DNA of 64,000 nt, from the sequence record LC739533.1; one strand, written 5' to 3'. The DNA is from Escherichia phage phiWec179. The position numbers and the translations under genes were made by a program. Within the stretch, counting starts at the first letter, position 1; each line of letters opens with the position of its first letter. Shown one piece after another: positions 19,129 through 64,000 of this stretch. Below the pieces are notes generated by a model. The model saw only the letters and a program-made list of their open reading frames with translations. It was not told where the DNA came from and did no database searches.

Positions 19129-19134
19129 CCCGCT

Positions 19135-19205: not shown

Positions 19206-19206
19206 G

Positions 19207-19280: not shown

Positions 19281-19286
19281 GAAACA

Positions 19287-27770: not shown

Positions 27771-27994
27771 TGGCAACAACATTCTATTTTGAAGGTAGTG
27801 AGAAAAAGACTTCCATTACCTTTCAAAGGGGTACACCAGCAGAAGATTTCTTATGGATGATAATCGATCATCTGAAAAGCGAAGGTATTCACCATATAGA
27901 CGAGTATTTCGCAGAGTCTACGGACTGGCAAAGCGTTGTTATGGAAGATGTTATTTTCGAACTACACCATATTATTAAGGAGGAGGGAATTTGA
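27770..27994 (+). CDS. Hypothetical protein
   Basis: Start at ATG 27770 overlapping upstream stop. Confidence 0.4.
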   Translation: MATTFYFEGSEKKTSITFQRGTPAEDFLWMIIDHLKSEGIHHIDEYFAESTDWQSVVMEDVIFELHHIIKEEGI

Positions 27995-29106
27995 AACAGA
28001 CTAATCAGACACTTTACGGTAAAGACTCAAATGGTAAACTGAAGCAATGGACTGTTTTCACAGACGGGGCAACAGTTACCGTAGCTCACGGTAAAGTTGG
28101 TGGGAAGATTACACAAAAATCATACGAGGCAGAAGCTAAAAACACTGGACGTGCAAATGCAACCACTCCAGAAGAACAAGCTGAAGCTGAAGCTTTTGCC
28201 AAATGGACTAAGCAACTGAAGAATGGTTATTATAAAACCACGGAAGAAGCAGAGAACCATGTTCCATCTACACCAATGAAATGCCAGGACTATAAAGATT
28301 TTGCGCATAAGGTGGTCTTCCCTGGGTATGCACAATACAAACTGAATGGCTTACGTTCAATGATCAACATGAAGGGCGAATGTTTGTCTAAAGCTGGAGA
28401 AGTTTACAAACTCCCTCCGCACTGGCAAGGTATTCCAAACTTCATCAGCGAAGTTGTTGGTCATCCTCTGGATGGGGAAGTGTTCGCTGGTCTTGGTGTT
28501 CTTAGTTTGCAACAGATCAACAGCGCATGGAAAAAGCACAATGAGAATACACCGCTCCTCAACTATTATGTTTACGATGTTCCTGTGGCAGATATGCCAT
28601 TTGAGAAGCGTGTTGAAGTATTAGCGGCTCTTAAAGCTGTAGCCGAAGATAACGGTTTGGACGAACTGATCTGTGTCGTACATACAGAGTATATTGAAAA
28701 TCAAGAACAGTTGGATGCATTTTATGCTAAAGCTTTACTTGAAAAAGCTGAAGGTATCGTGTATCGTAATGCTCATGGTGTCTATGAGTTTGATAAACGT
28801 TCCTATGACGTGATCAAACGAAAACCGCGCCAGACTTTGGAAGTTAAAGTTATTTCTATGCGTTCTGATAAAAATAACGATGGGGTGTTGACAGGTGAGA
28901 TGGAGAATGGTAAACTTGTTGAGTTCTTGATGCGAAAAGATGCTCACGAAACTATCAACTACCGTAAAGCAGAGAATGCCGAAACTTTGATTGGTCAGTT
29001 TGTTGAGATCGAGTATGAAGAATTTTCTGATGAAGGTATCCCAACTAAACCAGTCGGTGTACGTCTTCGTAAAATGATCCCAGGGACTTGGGAGCCAGCA
29101 GAGTAA
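27991..29106 (+). CDS. ATP-dependent DNA ligase-like nucleotidyltransferase
   Basis: Motif I-like KLNGLR, motif III-like LDGEVFA, motif IV EGIVYR, motif V VIKRK in correct order; apparent TTG start after AGGAGG RBS. Confidence 0.55.
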   Translation: MKQTNQTLYGKDSNGKLKQWTVFTDGATVTVAHGKVGGKITQKSYEAEAKNTGRANATTPEEQAEAEAFAKWTKQLKNGYYKTTEEAENHVPSTPMKCQDYKDFAHKVVFPGYAQYKLNGLRSMINMKGECLSKAGEVYKLPPHWQGIPNFISEVVGHPLDGEVFAGLGVLSLQQINSAWKKHNENTPLLNYYVYDVPVADMPFEKRVEVLAALKAVAEDNGLDELICVVHTEYIENQEQLDAFYAKALLEKAEGIVYRNAHGVYEFDKRSYDVIKRKPRQTLEVKVISMRSDKNNDGVLTGEMENGKLVEFLMRKDAHETINYRKAENAETLIGQFVEIEYEEFSDEGIPTKPVGVRLRKMIPGTWEPAE

Positions 29107-29516: not shown

Positions 29517-30245
29517 ATGATCGAGAACTTTTTTAAAGAGATTAAGGTAGATGTGGACTTCTATAAGAAAGCAGCTAAACATGTAATTGATTGGAATGCA
29601 AAAGCGCGTGGCGGAGAACAGCCGGAATTTGACCAGGCGATGTTTGTTTCCCAGATCGGGTTTGTTCGTGAAGAACTGAAAGAGTATGAAGAAGCCGCTA
29701 AAACTAATGATCACGTTGAACTCTTGGATGCAGCCGCCGATGTATTCGTTGTTTCCAGTTACCTGGTGTACATGTTCTTTGGTGAAGAAGCCACTCTGAA
29801 GTTCCTTGAGAATCAGGTTGGTACTGTCTTCACAGAAACAATCTACACCGATTTCGACAATATGGAAGCTACCTTCACTGATCCTGTTCAGATGGCAGTA
29901 TTGAGTGCTGGTATTATGAACCTTGCGCGTGATACGCTGGTGCGTTCTGTTTATGCAGACAAAAAGATTATGAAAGAAGTTCTTGACAGTAATGATTCTA
30001 AGTACCCTACTAAGAAGCAACTGTTGGCTGTATGGAATACTTCCGATATTGATCTTGCAATTTCACAAGAATGCGCAGCGATTGAAGAGCGTAATGCCAA
30101 TCGTCCTGAAGGTGCTTACACTGGCGTACATGCTACGTACAATGAAAAACAGAAAGTTTATGTGTTCTTTGATGATAAAGGTAAGATCATGAAGCCTTCT
30201 ACCTTTGTTAAACCTGATATTGCAAAAATCATTGCTAAGAAATAA
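29517..30245 (+). CDS. MazG-like nucleotide pyrophosphohydrolase (tentative)
   Basis: REELKEYEEA ... LLDAAADVF acidic helix pair resembling the MazG EExxE...D motif. Confidence 0.4.
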   Translation: MIENFFKEIKVDVDFYKKAAKHVIDWNAKARGGEQPEFDQAMFVSQIGFVREELKEYEEAAKTNDHVELLDAAADVFVVSSYLVYMFFGEEATLKFLENQVGTVFTETIYTDFDNMEATFTDPVQMAVLSAGIMNLARDTLVRSVYADKKIMKEVLDSNDSKYPTKKQLLAVWNTSDIDLAISQECAAIEERNANRPEGAYTGVHATYNEKQKVYVFFDDKGKIMKPSTFVKPDIAKIIAKK

Positions 30246-43276: not shown

Positions 43277-43284
43277 GGAGGGTT

Positions 43285-50181: not shown

Positions 50182-50195
50182 TCGAAGGAGCAATT

Positions 50196-50768: not shown

Positions 50769-50778
50769 GGAGGAAGGA

Positions 50779-51108
50779 ATGGAAATTACTACAGAACAGG
50801 CTCTTATCGACGAAGGGCGTAAAATCTTAGAGAAGCATTTGGGAGATATACATCAAACCCCTGGCTACTTAGGGTGGCGCATGGTTGAAGCTGTAGATTT
50901 CCTTCCTCGTACAAAACAAGACGTTGAAATGCGTTCTCTGTTCTTGCTTGTCAAAGTAGACGGGGATACGCCTTTCAAACTCGCAGCTTCACACATTGAG
51001 AAGGTGGAGGAGAAAGCTTATTCAGAGTTTGCCGAACTCGTATTACAGGAGGATCTCGAAGGGAAGGTAAACATTTTTATTTTTCTGGATTTTGAGGAGG
51101 AGATATGA
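50779..51108 (+). CDS. Hypothetical protein
   Basis: 109 aa; RBS GAGGAGG. Confidence 0.45.
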   Translation: MEITTEQALIDEGRKILEKHLGDIHQTPGYLGWRMVEAVDFLPRTKQDVEMRSLFLLVKVDGDTPFKLAASHIEKVEEKAYSEFAELVLQEDLEGKVNIFIFLDFEEEI

Positions 51109-51842
51109 TTTTATATAAAGAGATTACCGTGGAGCAGGATCAAGACCTCTTCATCATCGGGGACTTACATGGTTGCTACGATCTTTACTTGAAAGGTAAG
51201 AATTATCTTGGTATCCGAGATACAGATGTGGTTGTGTCTCTCGGAGATTTGACAGATCGCGGTAAACAAAACTTCAAATGTGTTGTGGAATTTACACGCA
51301 AAGAGAATCGTTATGCGCTTTGTGGTAATCACGAAGATATGATGATTAAAGGCTTACTGGAAGGGGATCGTCGTTACTACGAATGTTGGTATCAGAACGG
51401 TGGTCATACAGTGTTGGCAGAATGTGATGAAGAAGGCTCTACATTACTTGCTACGATGGTCGAGGACAACCCTGTGGTTTTGGTTGTGAATTACCGAGGT
51501 ATGAAGTTAGGGTTTATTCATGGCGGATATCCTTCCTCTTTTGAATATATTCCGCTGACAGACATACCGCACCTACGTATGAACAAAGCAAGAGAGGCTA
51601 CTTTTGCTGAAGCTTTGATGTGGGATCGTGACATGGTGGAGTGTGCTAAAGAAGGTATGAAACTTCCGGTTGTTATGGGTGTTGATTATGTGTTTCACGG
51701 GCACTCTTATGTGAAAGAACCTTTGATCAATGCTAATCGTGTTTATATGGACACTGGGTCTGTTTTCAATAACAACTTAACGTTTGCCTATTTTGATGCA
51801 GACGGTGGACTTCAGTTTTATTCAACTTTACAGGAGGATTAA
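51105..51842 (+). CDS. PPP-family Ser/Thr protein phosphatase (lambda PPase-like)
   Basis: GDLHG, GDLTDRG, GNHE motifs in canonical order. Confidence 0.7.
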   Translation: MILYKEITVEQDQDLFIIGDLHGCYDLYLKGKNYLGIRDTDVVVSLGDLTDRGKQNFKCVVEFTRKENRYALCGNHEDMMIKGLLEGDRRYYECWYQNGGHTVLAECDEEGSTLLATMVEDNPVVLVVNYRGMKLGFIHGGYPSSFEYIPLTDIPHLRMNKAREATFAEALMWDRDMVECAKEGMKLPVVMGVDYVFHGHSYVKEPLINANRVYMDTGSVFNNNLTFAYFDADGGLQFYSTLQED

Positions 51843-52135: not shown

Positions 52136-52143
52136 GGTGGCCT

Positions 52144-52722: not shown

Positions 52723-53236
52723 GTTAAATCGTGCAAACGTAGGTAATCGTTTTAACCTTAGCCGTATAAACGAGGACGTAGATGTTACAGCAGATATTGA
52801 AAAAATCATGCAGGGTATTGTCCATCACGGTTTGCGTTTTGCCAGGGATTTGGTAATCTTCCGTTATGACGGAGAAGATGATCGTTCAAAGAATGATGGG
52901 ATTATCTTCGTAGATAAAGATTTAACCCAAGCAGATATTGAACAGATCAACCGTTATTTTATTGGTGTAGGGGATCTTCAAGACACGCAGCTTGCACGTA
53001 TGGCAGAAATTCTGGCGAATAAATTGTTGCAAGATATCGGAAAAGTTCTTGACAAAAATCCAAAACATGTTATAGTGACTATCCACAAAATGAGTTTTAT
53101 TAAGTATCTTAACAAACCTGGTAAACTGGGTTATGGATGGATACGCACAAGTGGACCACAAACCACTCTCGAAACCGAGATGTGCTATACAATTGAAGAA
53201 GTAAAACGTGAGGAGGAAGAGAATGGCGGAATTTAA
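52676..53236 (+). CDS. Hypothetical protein
   Basis: Long listed ORF trimmed to first start with RBS (ATG 52676; GTG 52712 alternative). Confidence 0.35.
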   Translation: MLFLNRWSRGQSVAIKLNRANVGNRFNLSRINEDVDVTADIEKIMQGIVHHGLRFARDLVIFRYDGEDDRSKNDGIIFVDKDLTQADIEQINRYFIGVGDLQDTQLARMAEILANKLLQDIGKVLDKNPKHVIVTIHKMSFIKYLNKPGKLGYGWIRTSGPQTTLETEMCYTIEEVKREEEENGGI

Positions 53237-53513
53237 TGAAGTGAAAAGTTACGAAAGCAATTTCGTAAGCAATTGGGAAGCATGGGATGAGATGGGTGTT
53301 GGTGAACTCTATTTCTACAATGTAACCCTTCGTCCAGAATATCAACATCTCATTCCAGAAGGCACTGTGCAGATCGGTATGTTCATGTCTTCTCAAGACG
53401 GTGTTGTGCAGTTTGAGTTTTACTCTGACACAGAACAGAACGAATTCACTTATCGTGCATTCAATATCGTATTAGCTTTAGGAGAGGAGAAATTTTATGA
53501 CGACGAAGTATAA
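53223..53513 (+). CDS. Hypothetical protein
   Basis: Start set to ATG 53223 after RBS GAGGAGGAAG. Confidence 0.4.
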   Translation: MAEFNEVKSYESNFVSNWEAWDEMGVGELYFYNVTLRPEYQHLIPEGTVQIGMFMSSQDGVVQFEFYSDTEQNEFTYRAFNIVLALGEEKFYDDEV

Positions 53514-54305: not shown

Positions 54306-55244
54306 ATGAAAGTATTAATCGGTAGTCGTGCGTTGGAAATGATTTGTCGTTCTCGTGGTGTAGAACTGTATCGTGCTTGCGTAGATCTGGATTACCTCTG
54401 CACTGAAGAAGAGTGGCAAGCAGAAGCCCAGAAATTCTCGAAAGATCGTTTCGTAGAAATTGTTGAACGTAAAGGTAACAAAGGGCATATCAAAATGATC
54501 GCGGGCGCTCATCTGGAATATGATATTGCACAACCAGGCGACTCTACAGATGCTTTGATTCAATACATCAAAGAGAATGCAGATCATCTGCCGCGTATTG
54601 GTTATGATGTGGTCGCGCCTTTGGATGTTTTATACCTTCTGAAGATGAGTCACCGTTTTAAGAAGGACAGTCCTCACTTCCTGAAAACAATGAAGGATAT
54701 CCACTTCATGCGTAACCTTGGAGCGAAGATCCCTGAAGAGTTGGAAGATACATACAAACTGCGTCAGAAGGAGTCCTATAATTACGGGCACCCTAATCTG
54801 AACGTGAAAAGTAAAGATTTCTTCAAGGGTGATGAAGTGCCTTATGTGTATGATCACGATAGCCTGCACAGAGTTTTAGCTGTAATGGAGGAACCAGCTT
54901 ACACGAACTACCTAAAGGATGGTAACGAGGTAATGACAAGTAAAGATAAGTTCTATGCTGTTGACGAAACTACCAGATTGCTTGGGGTGTTAGAGGAGAG
55001 TTTGGTTCTGGCTTCGGAAAGGTGTCTAATACCTTTCAACTACAGTGTTACAGGGAAGAAGGCATTTCTTATGGCTTTGACTAAAGTTTGCACTTCTATC
55101 ACATCGGGCTACTTTCGAGAATATGCTTATGAAAAGTTCTTCCTTGTGTGTAAGGTATACGATAATATGTATCCTAACGACGAGTGGGTGGATACGTTAA
55201 GACAAGCCATAGATAAGGGGGCTGTTGATGTATATAAAGCATAA
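54306..55244 (+). CDS. Hypothetical protein, possible nucleotidyltransferase fold
   Basis: N-terminal LIGSRALEM ... CVDLDYL loosely resembles the GS...DxD signature of Pol-beta-type nucleotidyltransferases; weak. Confidence 0.3.
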   Translation: MKVLIGSRALEMICRSRGVELYRACVDLDYLCTEEEWQAEAQKFSKDRFVEIVERKGNKGHIKMIAGAHLEYDIAQPGDSTDALIQYIKENADHLPRIGYDVVAPLDVLYLLKMSHRFKKDSPHFLKTMKDIHFMRNLGAKIPEELEDTYKLRQKESYNYGHPNLNVKSKDFFKGDEVPYVYDHDSLHRVLAVMEEPAYTNYLKDGNEVMTSKDKFYAVDETTRLLGVLEESLVLASERCLIPFNYSVTGKKAFLMALTKVCTSITSGYFREYAYEKFFLVCKVYDNMYPNDEWVDTLRQAIDKGAVDVYKA

Positions 55245-55839
55245 ATATTTAGGAATCACAGACGAAGACTCCAAAGATGGAGAATTCGTCTACACGATCA
55301 CAGCAGCGAATGGATACTACCAGACCCGTATAGGGGGTTTATGGAGAGCTTTAAATGCGCGGGTAGGTAAGGGATCATACACAAACGTATGTGTAGATTT
55401 TAAAGATTTCAAAGAGTTTGCCGAGAGTGTAACAATATTAGCCAATTATAAAACATTAGATAGTTATGGGAACCACTATCACTTAGATAAAGACTTAAAA
55501 TGTTACAAGAAGGATAAATCTTACAACAAAGATTCAGTGCTGTTTATCCCTGGGCACTTAAATACCGCCTTGAAAGGTGTGATCCCTTACTTGGAGTGTG
55601 GGGCTACTTGTGGAGTCAGTTTTAGTAAGATTCGGAATAAGTTTCGAGCCTACTGTAATGATGGCGGTAGTAGACAGATACATTTAGGGTACTTCGAAAG
55701 TAAAGAAGCTGCTCAAAAAGCTTGGGTATTGGAGAAGATAAATCAAATAAAACGTTCCTTAATCAAAGAGAACATCTCGGACGAAGATATTTTGTATTTT
55801 ACGGGTGTTTTGATAAGCGATTTAGAAGGAGGTTATTGA
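55228..55839 (+). CDS. HNH homing endonuclease-like protein with AP2-like domain
   Basis: GNHYHLDKD ... N ... PGHLN HNH-like core plus FRAYCNDGGSRQIHLGYFESKEAAQKAW AP2-type element. Confidence 0.45.
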   Translation: MYIKHKYLGITDEDSKDGEFVYTITAANGYYQTRIGGLWRALNARVGKGSYTNVCVDFKDFKEFAESVTILANYKTLDSYGNHYHLDKDLKCYKKDKSYNKDSVLFIPGHLNTALKGVIPYLECGATCGVSFSKIRNKFRAYCNDGGSRQIHLGYFESKEAAQKAWVLEKINQIKRSLIKENISDEDILYFTGVLISDLEGGY

Positions 55840-56239: not shown

Positions 56240-56915
56240 AGTAGTTTTATCAACATTTGATGGATCTGGGATCATGGTACTTCGTTACGCAGAAGCGGGA
56301 CATAAATGCTATTGTGTAAATGCTGACGAAGGTGATCACGGGGCTTATGAAGTTCGCATGGAACATCCTAACATCACTTACGTGAACGCATGGATTGATT
56401 CCAACTTCAACCCTGAAGATTACGGTATTCCTAAGCCAGATATTATCTTTGGCTTCCCTCCATGTACCATGCTTGCTGGTTGCGGTAGTAAGCACGAACG
56501 TAGCGCAGAAGAGTTGGAAGAAGCTTTGGCTAACATTCGTATCGTGGAAGCTTTAGGAAATAAATACAACGTTCCGTGGATGATTGAGAATCCGGTGGGT
56601 AAACTGTCAACATTGTGGCGTAAACCGGATTTCTATTTCGATCCTTACGAATATGGCGGATATCTGTTTGATGAAGAAGGCAGCTTCCACCCTAAAATGC
56701 CTACCCGTGACGGTTACACAAAGAAAACCTGTATTTGGCATGGCAATGGTTTTGTTAAGCCTGTGAAGAAGCCTGTGGAACATATTGGTTGCTTCTGGGG
56801 CTGGAAAAGTTTAGGCGGAGCAAGTGCGAAAACAAAGCAACTCCGATCGTTAACTGCTCGCGGTTTTGCTCGTGCTGTGTTTTTATCTAACAACCTTTTA
56901 GATAAGGAGGAATGA
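56232..56915 (+). CDS. DNA cytosine-5 methyltransferase-like protein (compact)
   Basis: Motif I-like FDGSG, motif IV GFPPCT (Pro-Cys), motif VI ENPVG, in canonical order. Confidence 0.5.
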   Translation: MSKVVLSTFDGSGIMVLRYAEAGHKCYCVNADEGDHGAYEVRMEHPNITYVNAWIDSNFNPEDYGIPKPDIIFGFPPCTMLAGCGSKHERSAEELEEALANIRIVEALGNKYNVPWMIENPVGKLSTLWRKPDFYFDPYEYGGYLFDEEGSFHPKMPTRDGYTKKTCIWHGNGFVKPVKKPVEHIGCFWGWKSLGGASAKTKQLRSLTARGFARAVFLSNNLLDKEE

Positions 56916-57580
56916 TGACCCATTTAAAACCTTTTGGTGGAAAACCTATTGTGGCGTATCAAGTAGATCGTGATGATTGGGAAGGCAGTGTAGTTGTCTT
57001 TGGTAATCATTTCTTTGCTGTGCGTCGTAAAGGCGCAAGCATGTTAGATTGTGAGGAGGAGTATTGTCATGTCTCCCGTGCCAAAGAATTCGACCAGTAT
57101 GTAGAAAAAGGTTTTGTGCCTGTCAAAGCTTTACTGGAGGCAGGATGGTGGATACACTCTGCTCATGATGGTGTTAGACTTGACGAGTCTGTAGATAGTC
57201 TTGAGGCAGATTTTGACGAATGTGAAGATGGCATGTATATTGAGGGGGATCTTGTATTTTCCCTTGACGAGAAAAGTGTGTGGAAGAACTGGGAAGAAAT
57301 GGAACGTCACGCGCATTTTATCAATGATGCTTTGATTCGTAAAGCTTGGTTCACGGAGGCGGTGAAGGTAGCGTATCCGCAATTCACCTTTACAGAGGTT
57401 TGGGGCGGTCCACACCACATCACCCATACAGCATTTTTCGACTTCCCTGGTTCACGTTACAAAGGTAATGTAATGTGGGACTGGGATGAGAATGAAGTAC
57501 CATCTGTTCAAGACTTTCGTTGTTATGTTTGCCAAGGCGATCAAGAAGCCCTTGACAAATACCTGCAAAGTCTGGTATAG
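56912..57580 (+). CDS. Hypothetical protein
   Basis: 222 aa; ATGA-coupled. Confidence 0.45.
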   Translation: MMTHLKPFGGKPIVAYQVDRDDWEGSVVVFGNHFFAVRRKGASMLDCEEEYCHVSRAKEFDQYVEKGFVPVKALLEAGWWIHSAHDGVRLDESVDSLEADFDECEDGMYIEGDLVFSLDEKSVWKNWEEMERHAHFINDALIRKAWFTEAVKVAYPQFTFTEVWGGPHHITHTAFFDFPGSRYKGNVMWDWDENEVPSVQDFRCYVCQGDQEALDKYLQSLV

Positions 57581-57597
57581 TGCCAGCATCTGAACAA

Positions 57598-57625
57598 AGC
57601 CTCCTGCTTCAGGGGGCTTTTCTTT
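57598..57625 (+). terminator. Rho-independent terminator
   Basis: AGCCTCC-TGCTTCA-GGGGGCT followed by TTTCTTTT. Confidence 0.55.
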
Positions 57626-57638
57626 TATGGGAGGAAAT

Positions 57639-58133
57639 ATGTTTCAAGTAGAAATTCATGTGCACAACAGTTGTTCAAATTGCGAAACTTGTGGTTACAA
57701 TAGTTCAACCATGATCACTGTTAGCGGAGACTTAGGACATGCCAAGTTTGGCGAAGTCGCAAGCTGCTTCAGCGGAGAGGATGCAGATTGGCATGATATT
57801 GCTTTGTGGCTATGCGGAAGACTGAATGTAAATTGTAAAGACTTCCCTGAACTGTTGAGCCGAAATCTTATTGATAGTCGGGAACAAGCCTACAATATTT
57901 ATGCCGCTTCTGTTTATGTTGATCATAAATGGGTAGAAGATGAAGAAGCTGAACGTTTGCTGCGCCTCTACTACGAAGCAGAGGAAGCTTATGATAACTA
58001 TTATAGCATGTCCAACATTCTACGCTTGTTTGCAGAGTTTGATATTTACTTTGAAGTGAGTTATTCTGAAGAGGAAGTGTATGATTTTGATGACGATGAT
58101 TACGAGGAGGATGAAGAATGCCAAGACGATTAA
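57639..58133 (+). CDS. Hypothetical Cys-containing acidic protein
   Basis: Start set to ATG 57639 after RBS GGGAGGAAA; C-terminal poly-acidic tail. Confidence 0.4.
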   Translation: MFQVEIHVHNSCSNCETCGYNSSTMITVSGDLGHAKFGEVASCFSGEDADWHDIALWLCGRLNVNCKDFPELLSRNLIDSREQAYNIYAASVYVDHKWVEDEEAERLLRLYYEAEEAYDNYYSMSNILRLFAEFDIYFEVSYSEEEVYDFDDDDYEEDEECQDD

Positions 58134-58918
58134 TAGTGATCAGCGGTGCTGGTCTAAGCGCCGATAGCGGTGTACGTACTTTCCGCACTGATACAGATAG
58201 CGGGAAAGCTTTGTGGGATGAATACGACCTTTCTGAAGTGTGCGATATTTTCAATTTCCGTGCTGGCTACCAGCAAGAACAATGTGTTCCTGGCGCTGCT
58301 GGTGGATTAGATGCAGAGGGATACAACCTCTACCGTAAAACTCACGACTTCTACAATAAACGTCGCGTAGAGATGGATAGTGTGTCTCCTAACGCTGCGC
58401 ATTACCAGATCGCAGAGTGGTTCCAAGAGTACGGCTGCGATCGTGTTATCAACATCACAACAAACGTAGATGATCTTCTGGAACAAGCAGGGGTTGTTCA
58501 TGAAGATGTTCTGCATGTTCACGGCTTCCTGCCTGAAGTGATTGTAGACAATAGAATCATCAAGGATGTTGGTTATGCTGCTATTGATGTAGATGATTAC
58601 AAGTATGTGAAGCCCAATGTAGTGTTCTTTGGGGAGACTGCCCCACTGTATAACGATATGTACCACATCTTAGACGGCTTGACGGCTCAAGATATGGTGG
58701 TTGTAGTGGGCTGCTCTAATCAAGTGATCAACTTCAACTGGGATTTGTTCCCAGCCCTCAACATAGGAACAAAGATGGTCGTAGTTAATCCTGGGGTTAA
58801 TTACGAAGAAACACTTCTCTATGAAGATCGTGGAGTTTTTGTTTACCGAGAAAAAGCTGCAACAGCCTTCAGTAATGAAGGTTTCATTAAAATGATCGAA
58901 GACCACTTAAACAAATAA
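58118..58918 (+). CDS. Sir2-family (sirtuin-like) NAD-dependent protein
   Basis: ISGAGLSADSGVRTFR, VLHVHG, VVFFGE; no obvious Zn-binding Cys tetrad. Confidence 0.6.
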   Translation: MPRRLIVISGAGLSADSGVRTFRTDTDSGKALWDEYDLSEVCDIFNFRAGYQQEQCVPGAAGGLDAEGYNLYRKTHDFYNKRRVEMDSVSPNAAHYQIAEWFQEYGCDRVINITTNVDDLLEQAGVVHEDVLHVHGFLPEVIVDNRIIKDVGYAAIDVDDYKYVKPNVVFFGETAPLYNDMYHILDGLTAQDMVVVVGCSNQVINFNWDLFPALNIGTKMVVVNPGVNYEETLLYEDRGVFVYREKAATAFSNEGFIKMIEDHLNK

Positions 58919-58923
58919 ACCAA

Positions 58924-58948
58924 CCAAGGGGCTACGGCCCCTTTCTTA
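58924..58948 (+). terminator. Rho-independent terminator
   Basis: AGGGGC-TACG-GCCCCT followed by TTCTTATT. Confidence 0.55.
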
Positions 58949-58961
58949 TTAGGAGATTACT

Positions 58962-59234
58962 ATGCAACAAGAAACTTTCGATTTTTATCTCGCCAATTAC
59001 GTCTACTACTTCTCTAATGGTACACAGAAAGGGGAAGGCAACCTTTACCTGGCTACCAACACTGGAGCAGGTGTTCGTAAAGCCAATATTGATTTAGCAA
59101 GAGAAACAGTTCGCTCTGGACTGGAAGAGACGCTTGAAACTCCCGTTGTTGTGGTTATACAAACTATCAGTTACCTTGCAACTTGTACTAAAGAAGATTT
59201 TGAGGCTCCTCAAACGCAATCTAACGAAGCATAA
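58962..59234 (+). CDS. Hypothetical protein
   Basis: 90 aa; last plus-strand gene before convergent terminator. Confidence 0.45.
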   Translation: MQQETFDFYLANYVYYFSNGTQKGEGNLYLATNTGAGVRKANIDLARETVRSGLEETLETPVVVVIQTISYLATCTKEDFEAPQTQSNEA

Positions 59235-59268
59235 AAGAAAGGCACCCAAGTGGGTGCCTTTTCTATTT
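59234..59268. terminator. Bidirectional terminator between convergent gene blocks
   Basis: A-run, AGGCACCC-AAG-TGGGTGCCT hairpin, T-run. Confidence 0.6.
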
Positions 59269-59303
59269 GAGAGCGTCTCTGTGCGATTTAAGGGGGTTCT
59301 CGG

Positions 59304-59534
59304 CTATTTGTGAAGTGCTCTCTCGTACAACTCGATAATCAACTCGTCTTCGGCAGTAATACGGGCCATTTGATCTGTCTTCAGGATTGCTGGTTGGTAA
59401 TGATGCATTTCACTGCTCAAGATACACTCCCACTCATCTTCCCCTACTCTCTCACCTACGTGAATCTTCACAGGATACCAGAAAGGATTGTCCACCAGGA
59501 ATGCCATACAACCTTCTTCGATTTTGCTCAACAT
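59304..59534 (-). CDS. Hypothetical protein
   Basis: 76 aa; RBS AAGGAG. Confidence 0.45.
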   Translation of the reverse strand: MLSKIEEGCMAFLVDNPFWYPVKIHVGERVGEDEWECILSSEMHHYQPAILKTDQMARITAEDELIIELYERALHK

Positions 59535-59555
59535 AGTAATCTCCTTTGTTCAGAT

Positions 59556-59580
59556 ATGAAAAAACCCGCCGAAGCGGGTT
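59556..59580 (-). terminator. Rho-independent terminator
   Basis: ACCCGC-TTCG-GCGGGT followed by TTTTTTCAT on minus strand. Confidence 0.6.
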
Positions 59581-59624
59581 CATGTGCTGCGGTAGGATCA
59601 GTATCCTACAGCACGAATTGTTTG

Positions 59625-59909
59625 TCAACGTTTGGAGTAGAAAAACTCCTCATATTCTGATCGTGTGACTATTGCTGGGCGACCTTTAGTGCCGAAGAAG
59701 TTTGCGCTTGGGCCTTGTGCCATACCTTTATTGAACAAGCAGTAATCCCCACGCATATAAATCCCAGAGAATGTTTCAACAACATCGTATTTGCCAACGC
59801 TGGAGAACTTAATTTCTCCATCTGCATCTCGAACTGCGATCACAGCTTGTTCAGGCCATTCTTCGTTGAGAGCTTTAAGACCGTTGTAAACTTCTTGTAC
59901 GAGTTCCAT
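59625..59909 (-). CDS. Hypothetical protein
   Basis: 94 aa. Confidence 0.45.
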   Translation of the reverse strand: MELVQEVYNGLKALNEEWPEQAVIAVRDADGEIKFSSVGKYDVVETFSGIYMRGDYCLFNKGMAQGPSANFFGTKGRPAIVTRSEYEEFFYSKR

Positions 59910-59918
59910 ATTACCTCC

Positions 59919-60092
59919 TTAAAGTACGATTTTTTCTTCGTCTGGTTTGTCATAATTTGGAGAGTAGACATGTGAAGGGTTGAAACCCTTGAAGCTACCA
60001 CGTCCTTTACGAGGACAGTTGAAAGTACGAGCCTGATGATCACCGAAAGACTTACCACAATGCACACATTTGAAGTTGGTAACTTTATTCAT
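59919..60092 (-). CDS. Zinc-finger small protein
   Basis: CVHCG ... CPRKG Cys pairs; start set to ATG 60092 after RBS AAAGGAGAAG. Confidence 0.45.
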   Translation of the reverse strand: MNKVTNFKCVHCGKSFGDHQARTFNCPRKGRGSFKGFNPSHVYSPNYDKPDEEKIVL

Positions 60093-60248
60093 GTTCTTCT
60101 CCTTTAGGTTAATAGGCTGCACCTATTAAGATGCAGCTTTTGATAGATTACTTAGATGAGTCCAGAATATCTTTTACTTTGGCGATGATAACATCTTGAT
60201 ACTTATGGATGTGATATCCTACTACTAAACCTACGATAAATGCAATCA

Positions 60249-60848
60249 TTATTTTCTCCTATTTTGCTCGAATGTAGCTTGTGTCGGTATGTCAAACCAG
60301 TGGAAGTAACCTTTTTGTTGGGGTGCGATGCTGGTGCCAGTTGCCACAGCCAACACATCCACACTGATACCTATCTGATCATCTTCTACCGTATAATCCG
60401 AGGACCATAATTTAACAGTCAACGGTGTCTTTCCGACGAGGAAGTGAAGTCCTGCGTTTCCCCAGAGATTCACTTCAATCGCCTCGTCTTGAGATACATC
60501 TTGCTCTACTTCCTGTAGTTTGTCAAACACTTTCTGCACATCTTTTGGGTTAAGACGGATACTGTGCAGATAGTCAAACATGTTCACAAAATCTTGTGCT
60601 CGTTTTGTGTTTTTGGATACAGGATGAAGACAGTGTGGCACTAACGGCGACACACGAATATACCCTCCATCATCGTACCAACGCACAATAAACACGTCTC
60701 GACTTGGCTGACGATCTTTTGCTAAGATCGTAACTTCTTGACCCTCTTCAATAGATGGGTAGTCTGGATCATACGCTGATGCACCATAGACCAAAGCTAC
60801 GTGTCCAACATCCAAAGGTGTTTTTCCGTCCCAATAATTTGTTTCCAT
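60249..60848 (-). CDS. Hypothetical protein
   Basis: 199 aa; RBS AGGAGGGGAAA. Confidence 0.45.
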   Translation of the reverse strand: METNYWDGKTPLDVGHVALVYGASAYDPDYPSIEEGQEVTILAKDRQPSRDVFIVRWYDDGGYIRVSPLVPHCLHPVSKNTKRAQDFVNMFDYLHSIRLNPKDVQKVFDKLQEVEQDVSQDEAIEVNLWGNAGLHFLVGKTPLTVKLWSSDYTVEDDQIGISVDVLAVATGTSIAPQQKGYFHWFDIPTQATFEQNRRK

Positions 60849-60857
60849 TTTCCCCTC

Positions 60858-61121
60858 CTAAATAAGATCTGTGAAGTAGTGAATAACTTCAATATTATGG
60901 AAAAGCGTTTTACGCTCTTTTGTGTATTCTGTTGTCGTGACAGTTACCTTCGCCACCCCAAAATCTTTCATAGGGAACGTGGGTGCCTCTTTCAGGATAT
61001 TATGTACTGTTTGGATGGCTTCAAATTCTGTCTCCCAGTAACTGAAGTAACCTTCGTCATCCGTGACGAGATTCTTGCCTTCCAAGTTCACGAAACAATA
61101 AAACTCTCGCGGTGTTGTCAT
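60858..61121 (-). CDS. Hypothetical protein
   Basis: 87 aa. Confidence 0.4.
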   Translation of the reverse strand: MTTPREFYCFVNLEGKNLVTDDEGYFSYWETEFEAIQTVHNILKEAPTFPMKDFGVAKVTVTTTEYTKERKTLFHNIEVIHYFTDLI

Positions 61122-61272
61122 TCCACCTTCTCCAAAGCTTTCTTGAAGAATGTAGCATGTAACAGATGGCCCTCTGTATCAAACCATGTCACTTTACAGG
61201 AGTCCCCGTAGTCCTCTGTGACGGTCATGATAACAGCTTCCCCACGTAAGGTTACAACATCGCCTACTGTAA

Positions 61273-61719
61273 TCATAAATCCTCCGGTGTACCAGCACGT
61301 AAAGCAGCTAAAGGTTCGGCTACAGCTTCCAGGGCGGCTTCAATTTGATCTTCAATCACATCACGAACCATTGCAATACGCTCATCAATATGCACAACGA
61401 AAGCATCGCTATAAGCACCAACTAACGTATTGTAAAATGTTTCTTGTGCGCTTAACGCGCCGCTAAGAATGAAATTACGTTGATCTTCAGGTAGTTGTTG
61501 GTGCTCTTCATATTTGGCAAACGTTTCACGGTTGATTTCCAACAGAGTCCCCATCATAAGGTCAAACTGCAAATCTTTGTCCGAGGGATTTCCCATTACA
61601 ATGGTATTGTAAATGTTCAGCAAGCTGGTGCTAACACGAGCATTGTTTTCTACACCTTCCATCTGACGGAAAATAGTTAACACATCAATAGTTTCTTCAA
61701 TCTTTTCGTTTTGGTTCAT
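61273..61719 (-). CDS. Hypothetical protein
   Basis: 148 aa; RBS AGAGGAGAACG. Confidence 0.45.
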   Translation of the reverse strand: MNQNEKIEETIDVLTIFRQMEGVENNARVSTSLLNIYNTIVMGNPSDKDLQFDLMMGTLLEINRETFAKYEEHQQLPEDQRNFILSGALSAQETFYNTLVGAYSDAFVVHIDERIAMVRDVIEDQIEAALEAVAEPLAALRAGTPEDL

Positions 61720-61897
61720 ATACGTTCTCCTCTATTATTGGAAGATATCCTGTAGTTTTACAGGGATTGCACTCATAAAGCTGGCCTACATCAACCATAA
61801 CGTAGCCTAAACCTCCACAATATGGACACTCCATAGGGGTACAAGGTACAGGTGTTGTTACGGTTACATCCACAACACGGGCAATTCTCATTCCCAT
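61697..61897 (-). CDS. Zinc-ribbon small protein
   Basis: CPYCGGLGY ... CNPCKTTGY (CxxCxGxG pairs). Confidence 0.45.
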   Translation of the reverse strand: MGMRIARVVDVTVTTPVPCTPMECPYCGGLGYVMVDVGQLYECNPCKTTGYLPIIEENVYEPKRKD

Positions 61898-62139
61898 TCT
61901 CCTATAAGCTGGGGATTCAAGGCGAATTGTGACATACGTTCAGTGGGAGAGTATAAGTACGGAGGTGTAATTTGCTCCAGCACCTTAGCTGCACGTACTT
62001 CATCTTCCACATCAATATGGAAACCACGTTCCATAGTTAATACGCCATGATCATTAAGAAGGAATAGAGATTCTACTCCATCTACCTTATCAATTGCAAC
62101 ATAAAGTTTAGTCATATTATCTCCATTACCATTCGGCAA
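61888..62139 (-). CDS. Hypothetical protein
   Basis: 83 aa; overlapping coupled start. Confidence 0.4.
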   Translation of the reverse strand: MPNGNGDNMTKLYVAIDKVDGVESLFLLNDHGVLTMERGFHIDVEDEVRAAKVLEQITPPYLYSPTERMSQFALNPQLIGEWE

Positions 62140-62431
62140 TCAGTTGAGGTTTGACAGCAAAAGCTTGAAAGGTTGTAATATCATAAAGAAAGACATTAGT
62201 CGCCTCTTTCAGCTTAGTTGTCATGCCAGCCTTAGTTTCTCCGTTCCACGGGAAGATAGCAACACCTTGCTCTCCAACTAACCACCAGTGGTAATTGCCG
62301 TCACGAAGATCTTTTGCTTTATAAAGATAATTAGTAATCATTGCCACGTTTCTCCCATCTTTGCATCGCCTGTAACCAGCCCTCGGCTCTTTCCCTGGTT
62401 TCGAAGTAGACAGGAATACCCGTCCCTGCAA
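62126..62431 (-). CDS. Hypothetical protein
   Basis: 101 aa. Confidence 0.4.
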   Translation of the reverse strand: MQGRVFLSTSKPGKEPRAGYRRCKDGRNVAMITNYLYKAKDLRDGNYHWWLVGEQGVAIFPWNGETKAGMTTKLKEATNVFLYDITTFQAFAVKPQLIAEW

Positions 62432-62694
62432 ATGTGACCCACCAAGTGAAGATCCACCAACCTGTTTTTATGCGATATCCTGTTTCATATTCGACCACTT
62501 TCATGAGTCACCTTTAAAATCGTCTCACTATATCATTTACTATGTGTGTCTGTCAAGTTTTTCTTAGGGAAGAAGAGATCACAATAATGAATGTAGAAAA
62601 GTTCCACCAAAACCTCATCCTTGTACGACAAACACTGCTCATCCTATTATTTTACATTAAAGCTTGGATAACAACCATCAGACAAATCTTAGTA

Positions 62695-62859
62695 TCATCT
62701 TATGGCTACAAGATAGAAACATAGAACACATCCAACCACACTTACTAAGAAACTGACATAAACAACAAACCTGTTATCGTCCACAATAGCCACAGCTAAT
62801 GCGGCAGATGTTATCAGGAAAAGAACCATCAACAGAATATCCCTGTTTACTGCATCCAT
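62695..62859 (-). CDS. Small membrane protein (54 aa)
   Basis: AGGAGGTG RBS before ATG 62859; mostly hydrophobic; below ORF-track cutoff. Confidence 0.4.
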   Translation of the reverse strand: MDAVNRDILLMVLFLITSAALAVAIVDDNRFVVYVSFLVSVVGCVLCFYLVAIR

Positions 62860-63146
62860 AGACACCTCCTCTTGTTAGTTACAGAGAGTATAATACCGGA
62901 ACGTTACGATTACAACTACGAAGAACGGGTGATTTTTGATTGATAGGTAGGACTTATCTGAAAGGAATAATTGATAGGGAACGCTGTATTGACTTTTGCG
63001 AAAAAACATGCTACCCTAAACATATGTTTACGAGCGATAGCGAGTAGTGATTTCTATAGTATTATTGCATGTTACTCACGATAGGGAGTAAGCAATGTTA
63101 GTGAGGTAGACAGACTATGATCAACCATCTACCTACTAACTATCTA

Positions 63147-63347
63147 TTACTCAGAGAAGGTACATTCGAGTACAGTCCAGACTAATATTACAGTCCAAGA
63201 TGCTAACAGTATCCTGAAGATAGTCCACCAACTAAACACATCTACCGTAATCCAGTGTCCAGCTACCAGTGATCCTGCTAACCAACCTCCTACAACAGTG
63301 ATAACCCAAAGAATAAAACCTATCAAAGAAAACGTAGCAAGTTTCAT
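63147..63347 (-). CDS. Small membrane protein
   Basis: 66 aa, two hydrophobic helices, Trp-rich. Confidence 0.45.
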   Translation of the reverse strand: MKLATFSLIGFILWVITVVGGWLAGSLVAGHWITVDVFSWWTIFRILLASWTVILVWTVLECTFSE

Positions 63348-63628
63348 TAGACTTCTCCTCTATAAAGTTTATCTTCTCTTCTAACTTCAATCTTACACTC
63401 TTTGTCTACCACAATCAAGACTGAACATGAGTAATATCCTTCTGCAACAGTCTCGATCTGTTCTTCCAGATCCTTCGTCAATTCCTCTCCCATGAGATAG
63501 AAGGCAAACTTCGTGCAATGTAATAACTCTTCCTTGAAGTTAACCATCTTGTAGATGTTCATCCCAGTCTTATGTTCATCTACTGTCCAACCACTTGATC
63601 GAAGTCTGACTGCTGCGTTATGTCTCAT
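63347..63628 (-). CDS. Hypothetical protein
   Basis: 93 aa; coupled overlaps on both sides. Confidence 0.4.
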   Translation of the reverse strand: MRHNAAVRLRSSGWTVDEHKTGMNIYKMVNFKEELLHCTKFAFYLMGEELTKDLEEQIETVAEGYYSCSVLIVVDKECKIEVRREDKLYRGEV

Positions 63629-63768
63629 CGTCCGTTACCATTCAATTGATCACGTAGCTTTTCTGCATCTCGTTTCTGTGGGAACGTGGCAACAGAGACA
63701 TTGAATTCATTAACAACAGAAAAGGACTTGTCCAGGTTTTCACGGATAGTAAAAGGTTTCTTGCTCAT
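63625..63768 (-). CDS. Small hypothetical protein (47 aa)
   Basis: ATG 63768 with ATGA overlaps at both ends; below ORF-track cutoff. Confidence 0.3.
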   Translation of the reverse strand: MSKKPFTIRENLDKSFSVVNEFNVSVATFPQKRDAEKLRDQLNGNGR

Positions 63769-63977
63769 AATCTCCCTCCATCTTTAAGACGATTTTTAAC
63801 CCAGCGTAGACGATCTGGATCTGTGTGTTGTGAAGCGTTTTCCGAATCCAGTAAATAAGCCTTTCTTCCGAACGGATAGGTTTCACATAACCCTGCTTCA
63901 ATAAACTGATTATACATCTCTTTCATAGTGTTTTCGATTAAATACCAGTTACCTTCTGGAAGGTCTAAATCATACAA
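63765..63977 (-). CDS. Hypothetical protein (start may lie beyond window)
   Basis: 70 aa ORF near window edge. Confidence 0.35.
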   Translation of the reverse strand: MYDLDLPEGNWYLIENTMKEMYNQFIEAGLCETYPFGRKAYLLDSENASQHTDPDRLRWVKNRLKDGGRL

Positions 63978-64000
63978 CCAATACTCAAGATTACCACACA

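What the first reader, a model, noticed from the sequence alone, without database searches (positions are those of the whole stretch)
58118..58918. Sir2-like NAD-dependent enzyme at the end of the early block
Sirtuin Rossmann motif GAGLSADSGVRTFR, catalytic-His region VLHVHG and VVFFGE are present, but no zinc-binding Cys tetrad. A SIR2 on the phage side could deplete or remodel NAD+, modify a host protein, or counter an NAD-based defence. It sits in a block that also holds a SLOG/DprA-like gene, two phosphoesterases and two DNA methyltransferases.
Basis: partly seen in the sequence, partly recalled or inferred. Interest (0 to 1): 0.6.

Follow-up and report, generated by a model that had tools for sequence, protein, structure and literature searches.

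The report
Zinc-free sirtuin gene of a coliphage
This is a real, apparently active NAD-dependent sirtuin gene that lacks the usual zinc site, but it belongs to a phage sirtuin family already annotated in about 2% of phage genomes, and its substrate has never been tested.

Summary
Window 58118-58918 (+) encodes a 266-aa SIR2-family protein (Pfam E 1e-19; phrog_2162 E 6e-101) with every quoted motif and no zinc-binding cysteines.

It is not new. The window is Escherichia phage phiWec181/186 (Phapecoctavirus), where the gene is already annotated cobB. Homologues occur in 978 of 50,697 phage records (T5-like, rV5-like, KVP40-like, jumbo phages). Zinc-ligand loss in phage sirtuins was noted in 2016, and the clade was discussed in 2022.

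The protein is a zinc-free offshoot of class III (CobB/SIRT5-type) sirtuins. The AF2 model (pLDDT 91) matches CobB best (TM 0.85). All catalytic and acyl-pocket residues, including the anion-binding Tyr79/Arg82 pair, are invariant in 40 homologues. No defence-NADase signature was found.

Best guess (0.4): an NAD-dependent deacylase acting on an acidic acyl-lysine of a conserved host or phage protein.

Main rival (0.3): the published Tpt1/KptA-like RNA 2'-phosphate removal idea. I reproduced its gene-context basis in other lineages. Here, however, the sirtuin lies 29-33 kb from the repair cassette, and this phage has lost the RNA ligase and kinase.

NAD depletion or counter-defence has no support. 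Interest is modest.

The parts
58118..58918 (+). Sirtuin CDS, 266 aa (cobB / Sir2-like; BDU12322.1 / BDU12762.1)
   Evidence: ORF; Pfam SIR2 E 9.9e-20; phrog_2162 E 5.7e-101; AF2 pLDDT 91.1, pTM 0.88; Foldseek top hit CobB 1s5p, TM 0.85
58145..58186 (+). NAD-binding Rossmann motif GAGLSADSGVRTFR (G10-A-G12, S14, S17, F22-R23)
   Evidence: Coordinates verified; residues invariant in 40 homologues
58235..58243 (+). E40-V41-C42; Cys42 occupies the CobB Ala76 acyl-pocket position
   Evidence: HMMER alignment to CobB; 40/40 Cys
58349..58366 (+). FYNKRR: Tyr79/Arg82, equivalent to CobB Tyr92/Arg95 (class III anion-binding pair)
   Evidence: Aligned to CobB FYNARR; 40/40 invariant; retained in 37 of 48 Zn-less representative clusters
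58457..58474 (+). TTNVDD: Asn116/Asp118 (CobB TQNIDN)
58508..58525 (+). VLHVHG: catalytic His135 (CobB His147)
   Evidence: His present in 140/140 representatives
58526..58609 (+). Cysteine-free remnant of the zinc-ribbon module (residues 137-164); predicted beta-hairpin
   Evidence: No Cys here; 0-1 Cys in all 40 homologues and no CxxC; strands E136-143 and E147-150 in the model
58610..58636 (+). KPNVVFFGE: FGE loop and acyl-lysine tunnel (V168, F170, F171, E173)
58709..58753 (+). Clade-specific motif GCSNQVINFNWDLFP, replacing the canonical GTSxxVYPAA substrate-binding strand
57627..58133 (+). Upstream ORF (phrog_9509; Cys-rich N-terminus, very acidic C-terminus) overlapping the sirtuin start by 16 nt. 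Lineage-specific neighbour, function unknown
58962..59234 (+). Downstream 90-aa ORF (phrog_15991), last gene of the + strand block
57552..57581 (+). Promoter-like site (TTGACA-18-TATAGT, TG extension, 11/12) upstream of the three-gene unit; consensus match only
59238..59261 (.). GC-rich hairpin flanked by A and T runs between the convergent blocks; probable bidirectional terminator
   Evidence: terminator annotated at the same spot in phAPEC8
25081..25425 (+). cREC (cyclic-phosphate-processing Rec) homologue. Adjacent to the sirtuin in rV5-like and RaK2 phages but 33 kb away here
   Evidence: tblastn 53-56% to Bas51/BIS47 ORFs; Bas51 ORF hits PF20274 E 1.3e-14; RaK2 homologue
25937..26482 (+). 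Metallophosphoesterase of the repair cassette
26497..26835 (+). 112-aa ORF occupying the place of the RNA ligase + kinase pair found in sister phages
27991..29106 (+). ATP-dependent DNA ligase (directly downstream of the sirtuin in rV5-like phages)
29517..30245 (+). MazG-like pyrophosphohydrolase of the same cassette
51105..51842 (+). NinI/PrpA-like metallophosphatase 6.3 kb upstream. 27% identical to the phosphatase next to a bacterial Zn-less sirtuin

Best explanation
The gene encodes a stand-alone, catalytically intact, zinc-free sirtuin derived from the class III (CobB/SIRT5) lineage. It is a member of the widespread phage family phrog_2162. Shown here: it has the sirtuin fold, an intact NAD+ site, the Asn116/Asp118/His135 catalytic set, and an acyl-type pocket whose lining (Cys42, Tyr79, Arg82, Val117, Val168, Phe170, Phe171, Val203, Ile204) is invariant across the family. 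Inferred: it binds NAD+ and releases nicotinamide as an oxygen of the substrate attacks C1' of the ribose. His135 then activates the ribose 2'-OH for the second step, and Tyr79/Arg82 hold a negatively charged group of the substrate. My committed guess is that the substrate is an acidic acyl-lysine (succinyl, malonyl or glutaryl type, possibly also acetyl) on a conserved host or phage protein. The enzyme would then be an early/middle-expressed deacylase with a specificity different from host CobB. The cysteine-free hairpin and the clade-specific GCSNQVINFNWELFP strand would provide that specificity.
For: Family membership: Pfam SIR2, phrog_2162. Nearest solved relatives by sequence are CobB, Sir2Af2, SIRT5 and Sir2Af1. 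Nearest by fold are CobB (TM 0.85), Sir2Af1 and SIRT5, in complexes with acyl peptides. All catalytic and NAD-binding residues are invariant in 40 homologues of 53-98% identity. All CobB acyl-pocket equivalents are invariant too. In a survey of 140 representative clusters the Zn-less forms grade into canonical 4-Cys class III sirtuins, and all keep Asn116 and His135. The family is uniformly acidic (median pI 5.0; this protein pI 4.6, net charge -19), like the CobB core and unlike what is expected of an RNA-end enzyme. A Zn-less YxxR relative sits in an ordinary bacterial chromosomal context with no RNA-repair genes. In this genome and its subfamily the gene is not next to any RNA-repair gene. 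This phage has no RNA ligase or kinase in the 151 of 154.5 kb searched. dN/dS is 0.04-0.08. The large T5-like group keeps the gene without an Rnl1-type ligase: 289 Salmonella phage records have the sirtuin and 14 have Rnl1. An independent modelling study of the KVP40-like branch also concluded that the acetyl-lysine tunnel is retained (PMC5107563).
Against: There is no biochemical data for any member. Host CobB restricts T4 and lambda (PMC4271551), so a generic CobB activity would not obviously help a phage. The zinc module and the VYP peptide-binding strand are both altered. NCBIfam CobB models score far below their cut-offs (97 vs 243; 79 vs 320). In at least four other phage groups the sirtuin lies beside non-homologous phosphoesterases (cREC, HAD_SAK, metallophosphoesterase) or Nudix/NADAR. 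A simple deacylase role does not explain that pattern. No target protein can be named.
Confidence: 0.4

Rival explanations
1. A Tpt1/KptA-like enzyme for nucleic-acid ends (the Iyer, Burroughs and Aravind 2022 proposal). The sirtuin would transfer ADP-ribose from NAD+ to a 2'-phosphate on RNA, for example at a healed or ligated tRNA break made by a host anticodon nuclease. His135 would then drive formation of ADP-ribose 1'',2''-cyclic phosphate and leave a 2'-OH. Neighbouring cREC, HAD, metallophosphoesterase and Nudix enzymes would prepare the ends or dispose of the cyclic-phosphate product.
For: I reproduced the gene context. In Vequintavirus Bas51 and Mydovirus BIS47 the order is phosphoesterase, polynucleotide kinase, RNA ligase, cREC, Sir2, DNA ligase, MazG. 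In T5-like phages HAD_SAK_2 lies 0-0.4 kb downstream. In RaK2 the order is Sir2, Nudix, cREC. T4-like contigs show RlaP-Sir2-NADAR and Sir2-Metallophos-HAD_SAK. Of 24 Sir2 lineages sampled from IMG/VR, 10-11 have a cREC, HAD_SAK or MPE gene within about 3 kb and 5 have Rnl1 plus kinase within 3 kb. The partners are non-homologous phosphoesterases, which suggests a functional link rather than inherited synteny. The two-step chemistry parallels Tpt1, and the invariant Tyr79/Arg82 pair could hold a phosphate (established knowledge of the sirtuin and Tpt1 mechanisms; inference).
Against: No sirtuin has ever been shown to act on RNA. The hydrophobic acyl-lysine tunnel is kept unchanged. The protein is strongly acidic. 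In the window the sirtuin is 29-33 kb from the cassette, and the RNA ligase and kinase are absent from phiWec186 and, by a separate deletion, from phAPEC8. Across Phapecoctavirus the two loci are always about 30 kb apart. Most family members (T5-like) have no Rnl1-type ligase. Five of 24 lineages show no panel gene within 10 kb.
Confidence: 0.3
2. A mono-ADP-ribosyltransferase (SirTM-like or T4 Alt/Mod-like in effect) that tags a host protein or nucleic acid to redirect host functions. NADAR or Nudix neighbours in some phages would reverse the tag or clear its products.
For: Sirtuins can ADP-ribosylate (SirTM, SIRT4/6; established knowledge). A Sir2-NADAR adjacency occurs in one T4-like contig. 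phiWec186 encodes a NADAR elsewhere in its genome.
Against: No macrodomain or NADAR partner lies near the gene in this window. Invariant retention of His135 and the acyl pocket points to two-step deacylase-type chemistry. The nearest relatives are deacylases.
Confidence: 0.1
3. An NAD+ glycohydrolase, or an NAD-centred counter-defence factor, that lowers or remodels the NAD+ pool or destroys an NAD-derived immune signal.
For: Defence SIR2 NADases also lack the zinc module (established knowledge). Some relatives sit next to NAMPT, which would recycle nicotinamide.
Against: PADLOC gives only noise (E 5e-4 over 38 residues). No defence SIR2 appears in the top 50 fold matches. The protein is a stand-alone 266-aa enzyme with no sensor domain or partner gene. 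The substrate pocket is strictly conserved, which a plain NADase would not need. NAD+ depletion would harm a virulent phage. This phage has no NadV or PRPP synthetase homologue to compensate.
Confidence: 0.06
4. A catalytically dead or purely structural remnant that is carried along passively.
For: Loss of the zinc site could in principle destabilise a sirtuin.
Against: All catalytic residues are invariant across phage families that share only about 50% identity. dN/dS is 0.04-0.08. The fold is predicted with high confidence. Homologues occur in 978 phage records.
Confidence: 0.02

Closest known systems
Phage sirtuin family phrog_2162: the 'Sir2-like protein' of T5, rV5, phAPEC8, Mydo and KVP40; the 'distinct clade of viral sirtuins' of Iyer et al. 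2022
   Same: Orthologous. phrog E 5.7e-101. Identity is 48-57% to Bas51, BIS47 and HdH2 proteins and 96-98% to the phAPEC8/UP17 proteins. It shares the Zn-less small domain, Tyr/Arg pair and GCSNQVINFNWELFP motif.
   Different: In this genus the gene is 29-33 kb from the cREC/phosphoesterase/ligase/MazG cassette rather than inside it. This particular phage has lost the RNA ligase and kinase.
Class III sirtuin deacylases: E. coli CobB, human SIRT5, Archaeoglobus Sir2Af1
   Same: Best sequence and fold matches. It has the same GAG, FR, N, D, H and FGE residues, the same Tyr-x-x-Arg pair, and equivalent acyl-pocket positions.
   Different: No Cys4 zinc site. About 25% identity. Scores are far below the NCBIfam CobB cut-offs. 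A variable insert of 0-30 residues sits in the helical module. The VYP strand is replaced by VIN. No basic N-terminal extension. Host CobB is antiviral (PMC4271551), so the roles probably differ.
Defence-associated SIR2 NADases (ThsA, DSR1/DSR2, SIR2-HerA, SIR2-pAgo)
   Same: SIR2 superfamily, NAD+ as substrate, no zinc ribbon (established knowledge).
   Different: No PADLOC match. No fused sensor and no partner gene. They are not among the top fold matches. This gene is encoded by a virulent phage.
Tpt1/KptA RNA 2'-phosphotransferase
   Same: Possible functional analogy only: NAD+-dependent, two-step, with nicotinamide release and a cyclic ADP-ribose product. In other phages the sirtuin occupies the place a Tpt1 would have in an RNA-repair cassette.
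   Different: Unrelated fold. The activity has not been shown for any sirtuin. The cassette link is absent here.
Class M sirtuins (SirTM), the macrodomain-linked ADP-ribosyltransferases
   Same: Bacterial or phage sirtuins proposed to modify macromolecules (PMC9503650).
   Different: No macrodomain neighbour. The catalytic His and class III pocket are retained.

Membership tests
SIR2 superfamily (PF02146) | Profile match above the curated threshold | tested here: met
   71.7 bits vs gathering cut-off 24, E 9.9e-20
SIR2 superfamily (PF02146) | Rossmann NAD+ site (GAGxS, F-R) and catalytic Asn/Asp/His | tested here: met
   G10-A-G12, S14, F22-R23, N116, D118, H135 align to the CobB residues and are invariant
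SIR2 superfamily (PF02146) | Sirtuin two-domain fold | tested here: met
   AF2 pLDDT 91; Foldseek probability 1.00 and TM 0.85 to CobB
Class III sirtuin deacylases (CobB/SIRT5) | Tyr-x-x-Arg pair that binds acidic acyl groups | tested here: met
   Y79/R82 align to CobB Y92/R95; 40/40 invariant
Class III sirtuin deacylases (CobB/SIRT5) | Cys4 zinc-ribbon module | tested here: not met
   No Cys in residues 137-164 and no CxxC in any of 40 homologues
Class III sirtuin deacylases (CobB/SIRT5) | Score above the NCBIfam CobB equivalog/subfamily cut-offs | tested here: not met
   97.3 vs 243; 79.3 vs 320; 70.9 vs 318
Class III sirtuin deacylases (CobB/SIRT5) | NAD+-dependent lysine deacylase activity | not testable with these tools
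   Needs enzymology; no published assay found
Phage sirtuin clade (phrog_2162; Iyer et al. 2022) | Profile match and orthology to the T5-, rV5- and Mydo-type proteins | tested here: met
   E 5.7e-101; 49-57% identity over full length
Phage sirtuin clade (phrog_2162; Iyer et al. 2022) | Neighbourhood with RNA-end repair genes (RNA ligase, kinase, cREC, HAD_SAK, 2H, Nudix) | tested here: not met
   Immediate neighbours are phrog_9509, phrog_15991 and phrog_8514, all of unknown function. cREC, MPE, DNA ligase and MazG lie 29-33 kb upstream. RNA ligase and kinase are absent from the genome. The feature is met in Bas51, BIS47, HdH2 and RaK2.
Defence-associated SIR2 NADases | Match to PADLOC defence SIR2 models | tested here: not met
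   Only PDC-S65 at E 5e-4 over 38 residues
Defence-associated SIR2 NADases | Fusion to, or operon with, a sensor or partner (SLOG, TIR, HerA, pAgo, DSR C-terminal domain) | tested here: not met
   Single-domain 266-aa protein. The DprA/SLOG-like gene is 5.4 kb away with about ten genes between.
SirTM (macrodomain-linked sirtuins) | Adjacent macrodomain gene | tested here: not met
   No macro hit among neighbours
Tpt1/KptA 2'-phosphotransferase | Tpt1 (PTS_2-RNA) fold or profile | tested here: not met
   The only Pfam hit is SIR2. Any relation would be functional analogy, not membership.
Tpt1/KptA 2'-phosphotransferase | NAD+-dependent removal of RNA 2'-phosphate | not testable with these tools
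   Requires biochemistry

The most novel reading that the evidence does not exclude
The phage sirtuin family, including this gene, is not a protein deacylase. It would be the first sirtuin directed at a phosphate group: an analogue of Tpt1/KptA that ADP-ribosylates and removes 2'-phosphates (or other terminal phosphates) on RNA or on a nucleotide-derived molecule. Tyr79/Arg82 would be repurposed from carboxylate to phosphate binding. The varied phosphoesterase, Nudix and NADAR neighbours would dispose of the ADP-ribose cyclic phosphate product. It would persist in phages that have lost their own RNA ligase because it works with host enzymes or on a non-ligation substrate.
Probability: 0.25. 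Interest if true: 0.8.

Novelty: already known. Interest (0 to 1): 0.33.

Why it matters
About 2% of sequenced phage genomes carry this zinc-free sirtuin, including model phages such as T5, the rV5-like and phAPEC8-like therapeutic candidates, and KVP40. Nobody has measured what it does. Two incompatible in-silico proposals exist: a protein deacetylase that activates host metabolism, and a Tpt1-like RNA-repair enzyme. NAD+ is now recognised as a central battleground between phages and bacteria, so settling the substrate would be useful. If the nucleic-acid hypothesis were right, it would extend sirtuin chemistry to a new substrate class. As a genome-scan finding, however, this gene is an ordinary member of that family and is already annotated. 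What this analysis adds is that the Phapecoctavirus lineage separates the sirtuin from the repair cassette and can lose the RNA ligase while keeping the sirtuin. That makes it a convenient natural background for testing the two hypotheses.

Tried and rejected
1. Defence-type SIR2: the PADLOC scan gave only a 38-residue noise hit. Rejected.

2. Clues from immediate neighbours: Pfam and PHROG scans of the 221-, 164- and 90-aa flanking ORFs and other block genes gave only unknown-function families.

3. The upstream ORF (57627-58133), which overlaps the sirtuin start, as a family-wide partner or a zinc module supplied in trans: it is confined to Stephanstirmvirinae (132 records) and is usually separated from the sirtuin by about 66 nt. 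Rejected as a general partner.

4. 'Sirtuin kept under selection after an ancestral loss of RNA ligase': dN/dS between the two ligase-less genomes is 0.04. However, one search showed that the losses are independent. phAPEC8 has a clean 2.3-kb deletion with flanks 97-100% identical to a ligase-bearing relative, so it is evidently recent. phiWec186 has a separate replacement. The argument is therefore weak and I do not rely on it. The T5-like phages are the better long-term case.

5. RNA ligase, kinase, NadV or PRPP synthetase elsewhere in the phage: none found in 151 of 154.5 kb. Record positions 50001-53450, within a structural-gene region, were not fetched.

6. Experimental literature on any phage sirtuin of this family: none found. 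There is only transcript profiling and homology modelling for a KVP40-like phage.

7. Zinc loss as a unique phage innovation: rejected. Zn-less forms make up 48 of 140 representative clusters and include a bacterial chromosomal example. The loss had already been noted in 2016.
Full report
**Observation.** Window 58118-58918 (+) is an ATG-to-stop ORF of 266 aa. A GAGGAGG ribosome-binding site lies about 8 nt upstream, inside the 3' end of the preceding ORF. The protein matches Pfam SIR2 at E 9.9e-20 (71.7 bits, cut-off 24) and PHROG family phrog_2162, 'Sir2 (NAD-dependent deacetylase)', at E 5.7e-101. Its four cysteines (42, 56, 107, 199) form no CxxC pair. None lies in the segment that replaces the CobB zinc ribbon.

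**Source and prior knowledge.** The window is 100% identical over the tested 3 kb to Escherichia phages phiWec181 and phiWec186 (Phapecoctavirus, Stephanstirmvirinae). There the gene is already annotated 'cobB, NAD-dependent protein deacylase'. In phAPEC8 it is annotated as a 'putative Sir2-like protein'.
- tblastn finds homologues in 978 of 50,697 phage records. These include T5-like, rV5-like (Vequintavirinae, Mydovirus), KVP40-like and jumbo phages.
- No paper in the searchable library reports an enzymatic or genetic test of any member.
- Two in-silico proposals exist. Skliros et al. 2016 modelled the KVP40-like protein, noted that its zinc ligands are missing while the acetyl-lysine tunnel is retained, and proposed deacetylation of host acetyl-CoA synthetase (PMC5107563). 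Iyer, Burroughs and Aravind 2022 defined 'a distinct clade' of phage sirtuins and proposed, from gene neighbourhoods, a KptA/Tpt1-like removal of RNA 2'-phosphate (PMC9503650).

**What the protein is.** The AlphaFold2 model built on a 40-sequence alignment is confident (pLDDT 91.1, pTM 0.88).
- Fold and sequence relatives: the best solved-structure matches are E. coli CobB (TM 0.85), Sir2Af1 and SIRT5, mostly in acyl-peptide complexes. No defence-associated SIR2 NADase appears in the top 50. Sequence search of the PDB gives the same order.
- Catalytic set: the residues aligned to CobB are G10-A-G12, F22-R23, N116, D118, H135 (= CobB H147) and F171-G-E173. All are invariant in 40 homologues that share 53-98% identity.
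- Substrate pocket: the class III pair Tyr79/Arg82 (= CobB Tyr92/Arg95) is also invariant. In CobB and SIRT5 this pair binds the carboxylate of succinyl- or malonyl-lysine (established knowledge). The other positions that line the CobB acyl pocket (Cys42, Val117, Val168, Phe170, Val203, Ile204) are invariant as well.
- Differences from CobB: the cysteine-free 28-38-residue hairpin in place of the zinc ribbon; a variable 0-30-residue insert in the helical module; replacement of the canonical GTSxxVYPAA strand by GCSNQVINFNWELFP; and scores far below the NCBIfam CobB cut-offs.
- Wider survey: in an exhaustive search of 1.84 billion representative proteins, 24 of the 30 nearest full-length clusters are Zn-less. 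More distant ones are mostly canonical sirtuins with two CxxC pairs. All 140 keep Asn116 and His135.

The protein is therefore a zinc-free offshoot of class III sirtuins, not a defence-type NADase (PADLOC negative).

**Genomic context here.** The gene is the penultimate one of a + strand block of about 37 kb (22.5-59.2 kb) that carries nrdAB, DNA ligase, thymidylate synthase, exonucleases and similar genes.
- Its immediate neighbours are phrog_8514, phrog_9509 and phrog_15991, all of unknown function.
- A promoter-like site at 57552-57581 and a hairpin at 59238-59261 bracket a possible three-gene unit (consensus matches only).
- The overlapping upstream ORF is restricted to Stephanstirmvirinae and is not a family-wide partner.

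**Testing the RNA-repair hypothesis.** I reproduced its basis in other lineages.
- Vequintavirus Bas51 and Mydovirus BIS47: the order is phosphoesterase, polynucleotide kinase, RNA ligase, cREC (PF20274), Sir2, DNA ligase, MazG.
- T5-like phages: a HAD_SAK_2 'Swiss-army-knife' RNA-end phosphatase follows within 0-0.4 kb.
- RaK2: the order is Sir2, Nudix, cREC.
- T4-like metagenomic contigs: RlaP-Sir2-NADAR, NAMPT-Sir2, and Sir2-Metallophos-HAD_SAK.
- Sampled lineages: among 24 Sir2 lineages (75% identity clusters) from IMG/VR, 10-11 have a cREC, HAD_SAK or metallophosphoesterase gene within about 3 kb. Five have RNA ligase plus kinase within 3 kb, and five have no panel gene within 10 kb.

Recurrence with non-homologous phosphoesterases is a real signal that the deacylase model does not explain. 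The window tells a different story, however.
- Homologues of cREC (25081-25425), the phosphoesterase (25937-26482), DNA ligase (27991-29106) and MazG (29517-30245) are present, but 29-33 kb upstream of the sirtuin.
- The RNA ligase and kinase that sit between them in sister phages (SKA64, ESCO5 and most Phapecoctavirus) are replaced here by a 112-aa ORF. They are found nowhere in the 151 kb of the genome that I searched.
- phAPEC8 lost them by an independent 2.3-kb deletion.
- Throughout the genus the sirtuin and the cassette are about 30 kb apart.
- The largest group of carriers, the T5-like phages, has no Rnl1-type ligase: 289 Salmonella phage records carry the sirtuin and 14 carry Rnl1.
- The whole family is acidic (median pI 5.0; this protein pI 4.6, net charge -19), which is unfavourable for binding polynucleotides.
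- One Zn-less relative with the Tyr/Arg pair lies in an ordinary bacterial chromosomal neighbourhood.

**A caveat on my own analysis.** dN/dS for the sirtuin is 0.04 between the two ligase-less genomes and 0.06-0.08 against ESCO5. Because the two ligase losses are independent, and at least one is recent, this shows purifying selection in general. It does not show selection that persisted after the loss.

**Weighing.**
- Shown: family membership, fold, an intact catalytic apparatus and pocket, absence of the zinc site, absence of defence-type features, and absence of repair-gene linkage in this genome.
- Inferred: NAD+ cleavage with nicotinamide release, and a His135-assisted second step on a substrate that carries a negative charge held by Tyr79/Arg82.
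- Substrate: I commit, at 0.4, to an acidic acyl-lysine on a conserved host or phage protein. Everything that defines deacylase chemistry and the acyl pocket is conserved, and the local evidence does not support RNA repair. The specificity must differ from host CobB, which restricts T4 and lambda (PMC4271551).
- Rivals: the Tpt1-like model stays a serious rival at 0.3 because of the convergent phosphoesterase neighbourhoods. ADP-ribosyltransferase (0.1), NADase or counter-defence (0.06) and an inactive remnant (0.02) are less likely.

**Novelty and interest.** The gene, its family, the missing zinc ligands and both functional hypotheses are already in databases or papers, so the finding is 'already known'. 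The biological question is open and experimentally tractable: what does a sirtuin carried by about 2% of phages do? Phapecoctaviruses with and without the RNA ligase are a useful natural pair for testing it. Interest is modest (0.33). It would be high only if the nucleic-acid-directed reading proved true.

Noticed in passing
window 26497-26835: A 112-aa ORF (phrog_1365) occupies the place of the RNA ligase + P-loop kinase pair present in SKA64, ESCO5 and most Phapecoctavirus genomes. phAPEC8 lost the same genes by an independent 2.3-kb deletion that fuses the N-terminus of the metallophosphoesterase to a downstream ORF.
   Followed up: yes
window 55225-55839: A 203-aa ORF with a weak AP2-domain hit (E 1e-3) is inserted between two genes that are adjacent in ESCO5 and phAPEC8. 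It is probably a homing-endonuclease insertion.
   Followed up: partly
window 57627-58133: An ORF with a Cys-rich N-terminus and an extremely acidic C-terminus (…DDDDYEEDEECQDD) overlaps the sirtuin start by 16 nt. It belongs to phrog_9509, is found only in Stephanstirmvirinae (132 records), and has no known function.
   Followed up: partly
window 42284-45559: A complete dTDP-L-rhamnose pathway (rffG, rfbA, rfbC, rfbD homologues) is encoded by the phage. Its purpose (DNA or surface-sugar modification?) was not examined.
   Followed up: no
window 19056-21113 (- strand): The GenBank record annotates an array of ten tRNA genes here, next to the strand-switch region.
   Followed up: no
window 50196-50768: A 190-aa ORF carries the PHROG/RefSeq label 'histidyl tRNA synthetase' (phrog_4806, E 1e-47). 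It has no Pfam hit and is far too short for a HisRS, so the label is probably misleading.
   Followed up: partly
window 54306-55244: A 312-aa protein made of DUF7277 + DUF7275 (E 1e-67), conserved in the subfamily, of unknown function.
   Followed up: no
L015/L016 6001-7659 (Logan metagenome contigs): A Zn-less sirtuin with the Tyr-x-x-Arg pair (P0140) lies in a bacterial chromosome between a TRAP transporter (dctPQM) and a PrpA/NinI-like metallophosphatase. That phosphatase is 27% identical to window 51105-51842, which lies 6.3 kb upstream of the phage sirtuin.
   Followed up: partly
phiWec186 record about 148.5 kb (L009 38487-39002), outside the window: The phage encodes a NADAR-family protein (41% identical to that of BIS47). 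No NadV or PRPP synthetase homologue was found.
   Followed up: partly
window 56549-64000: The window differs from the deposited phiWec186 sequence by a single base in this 7.4-kb stretch. The first 50 kb are identical.
   Followed up: no
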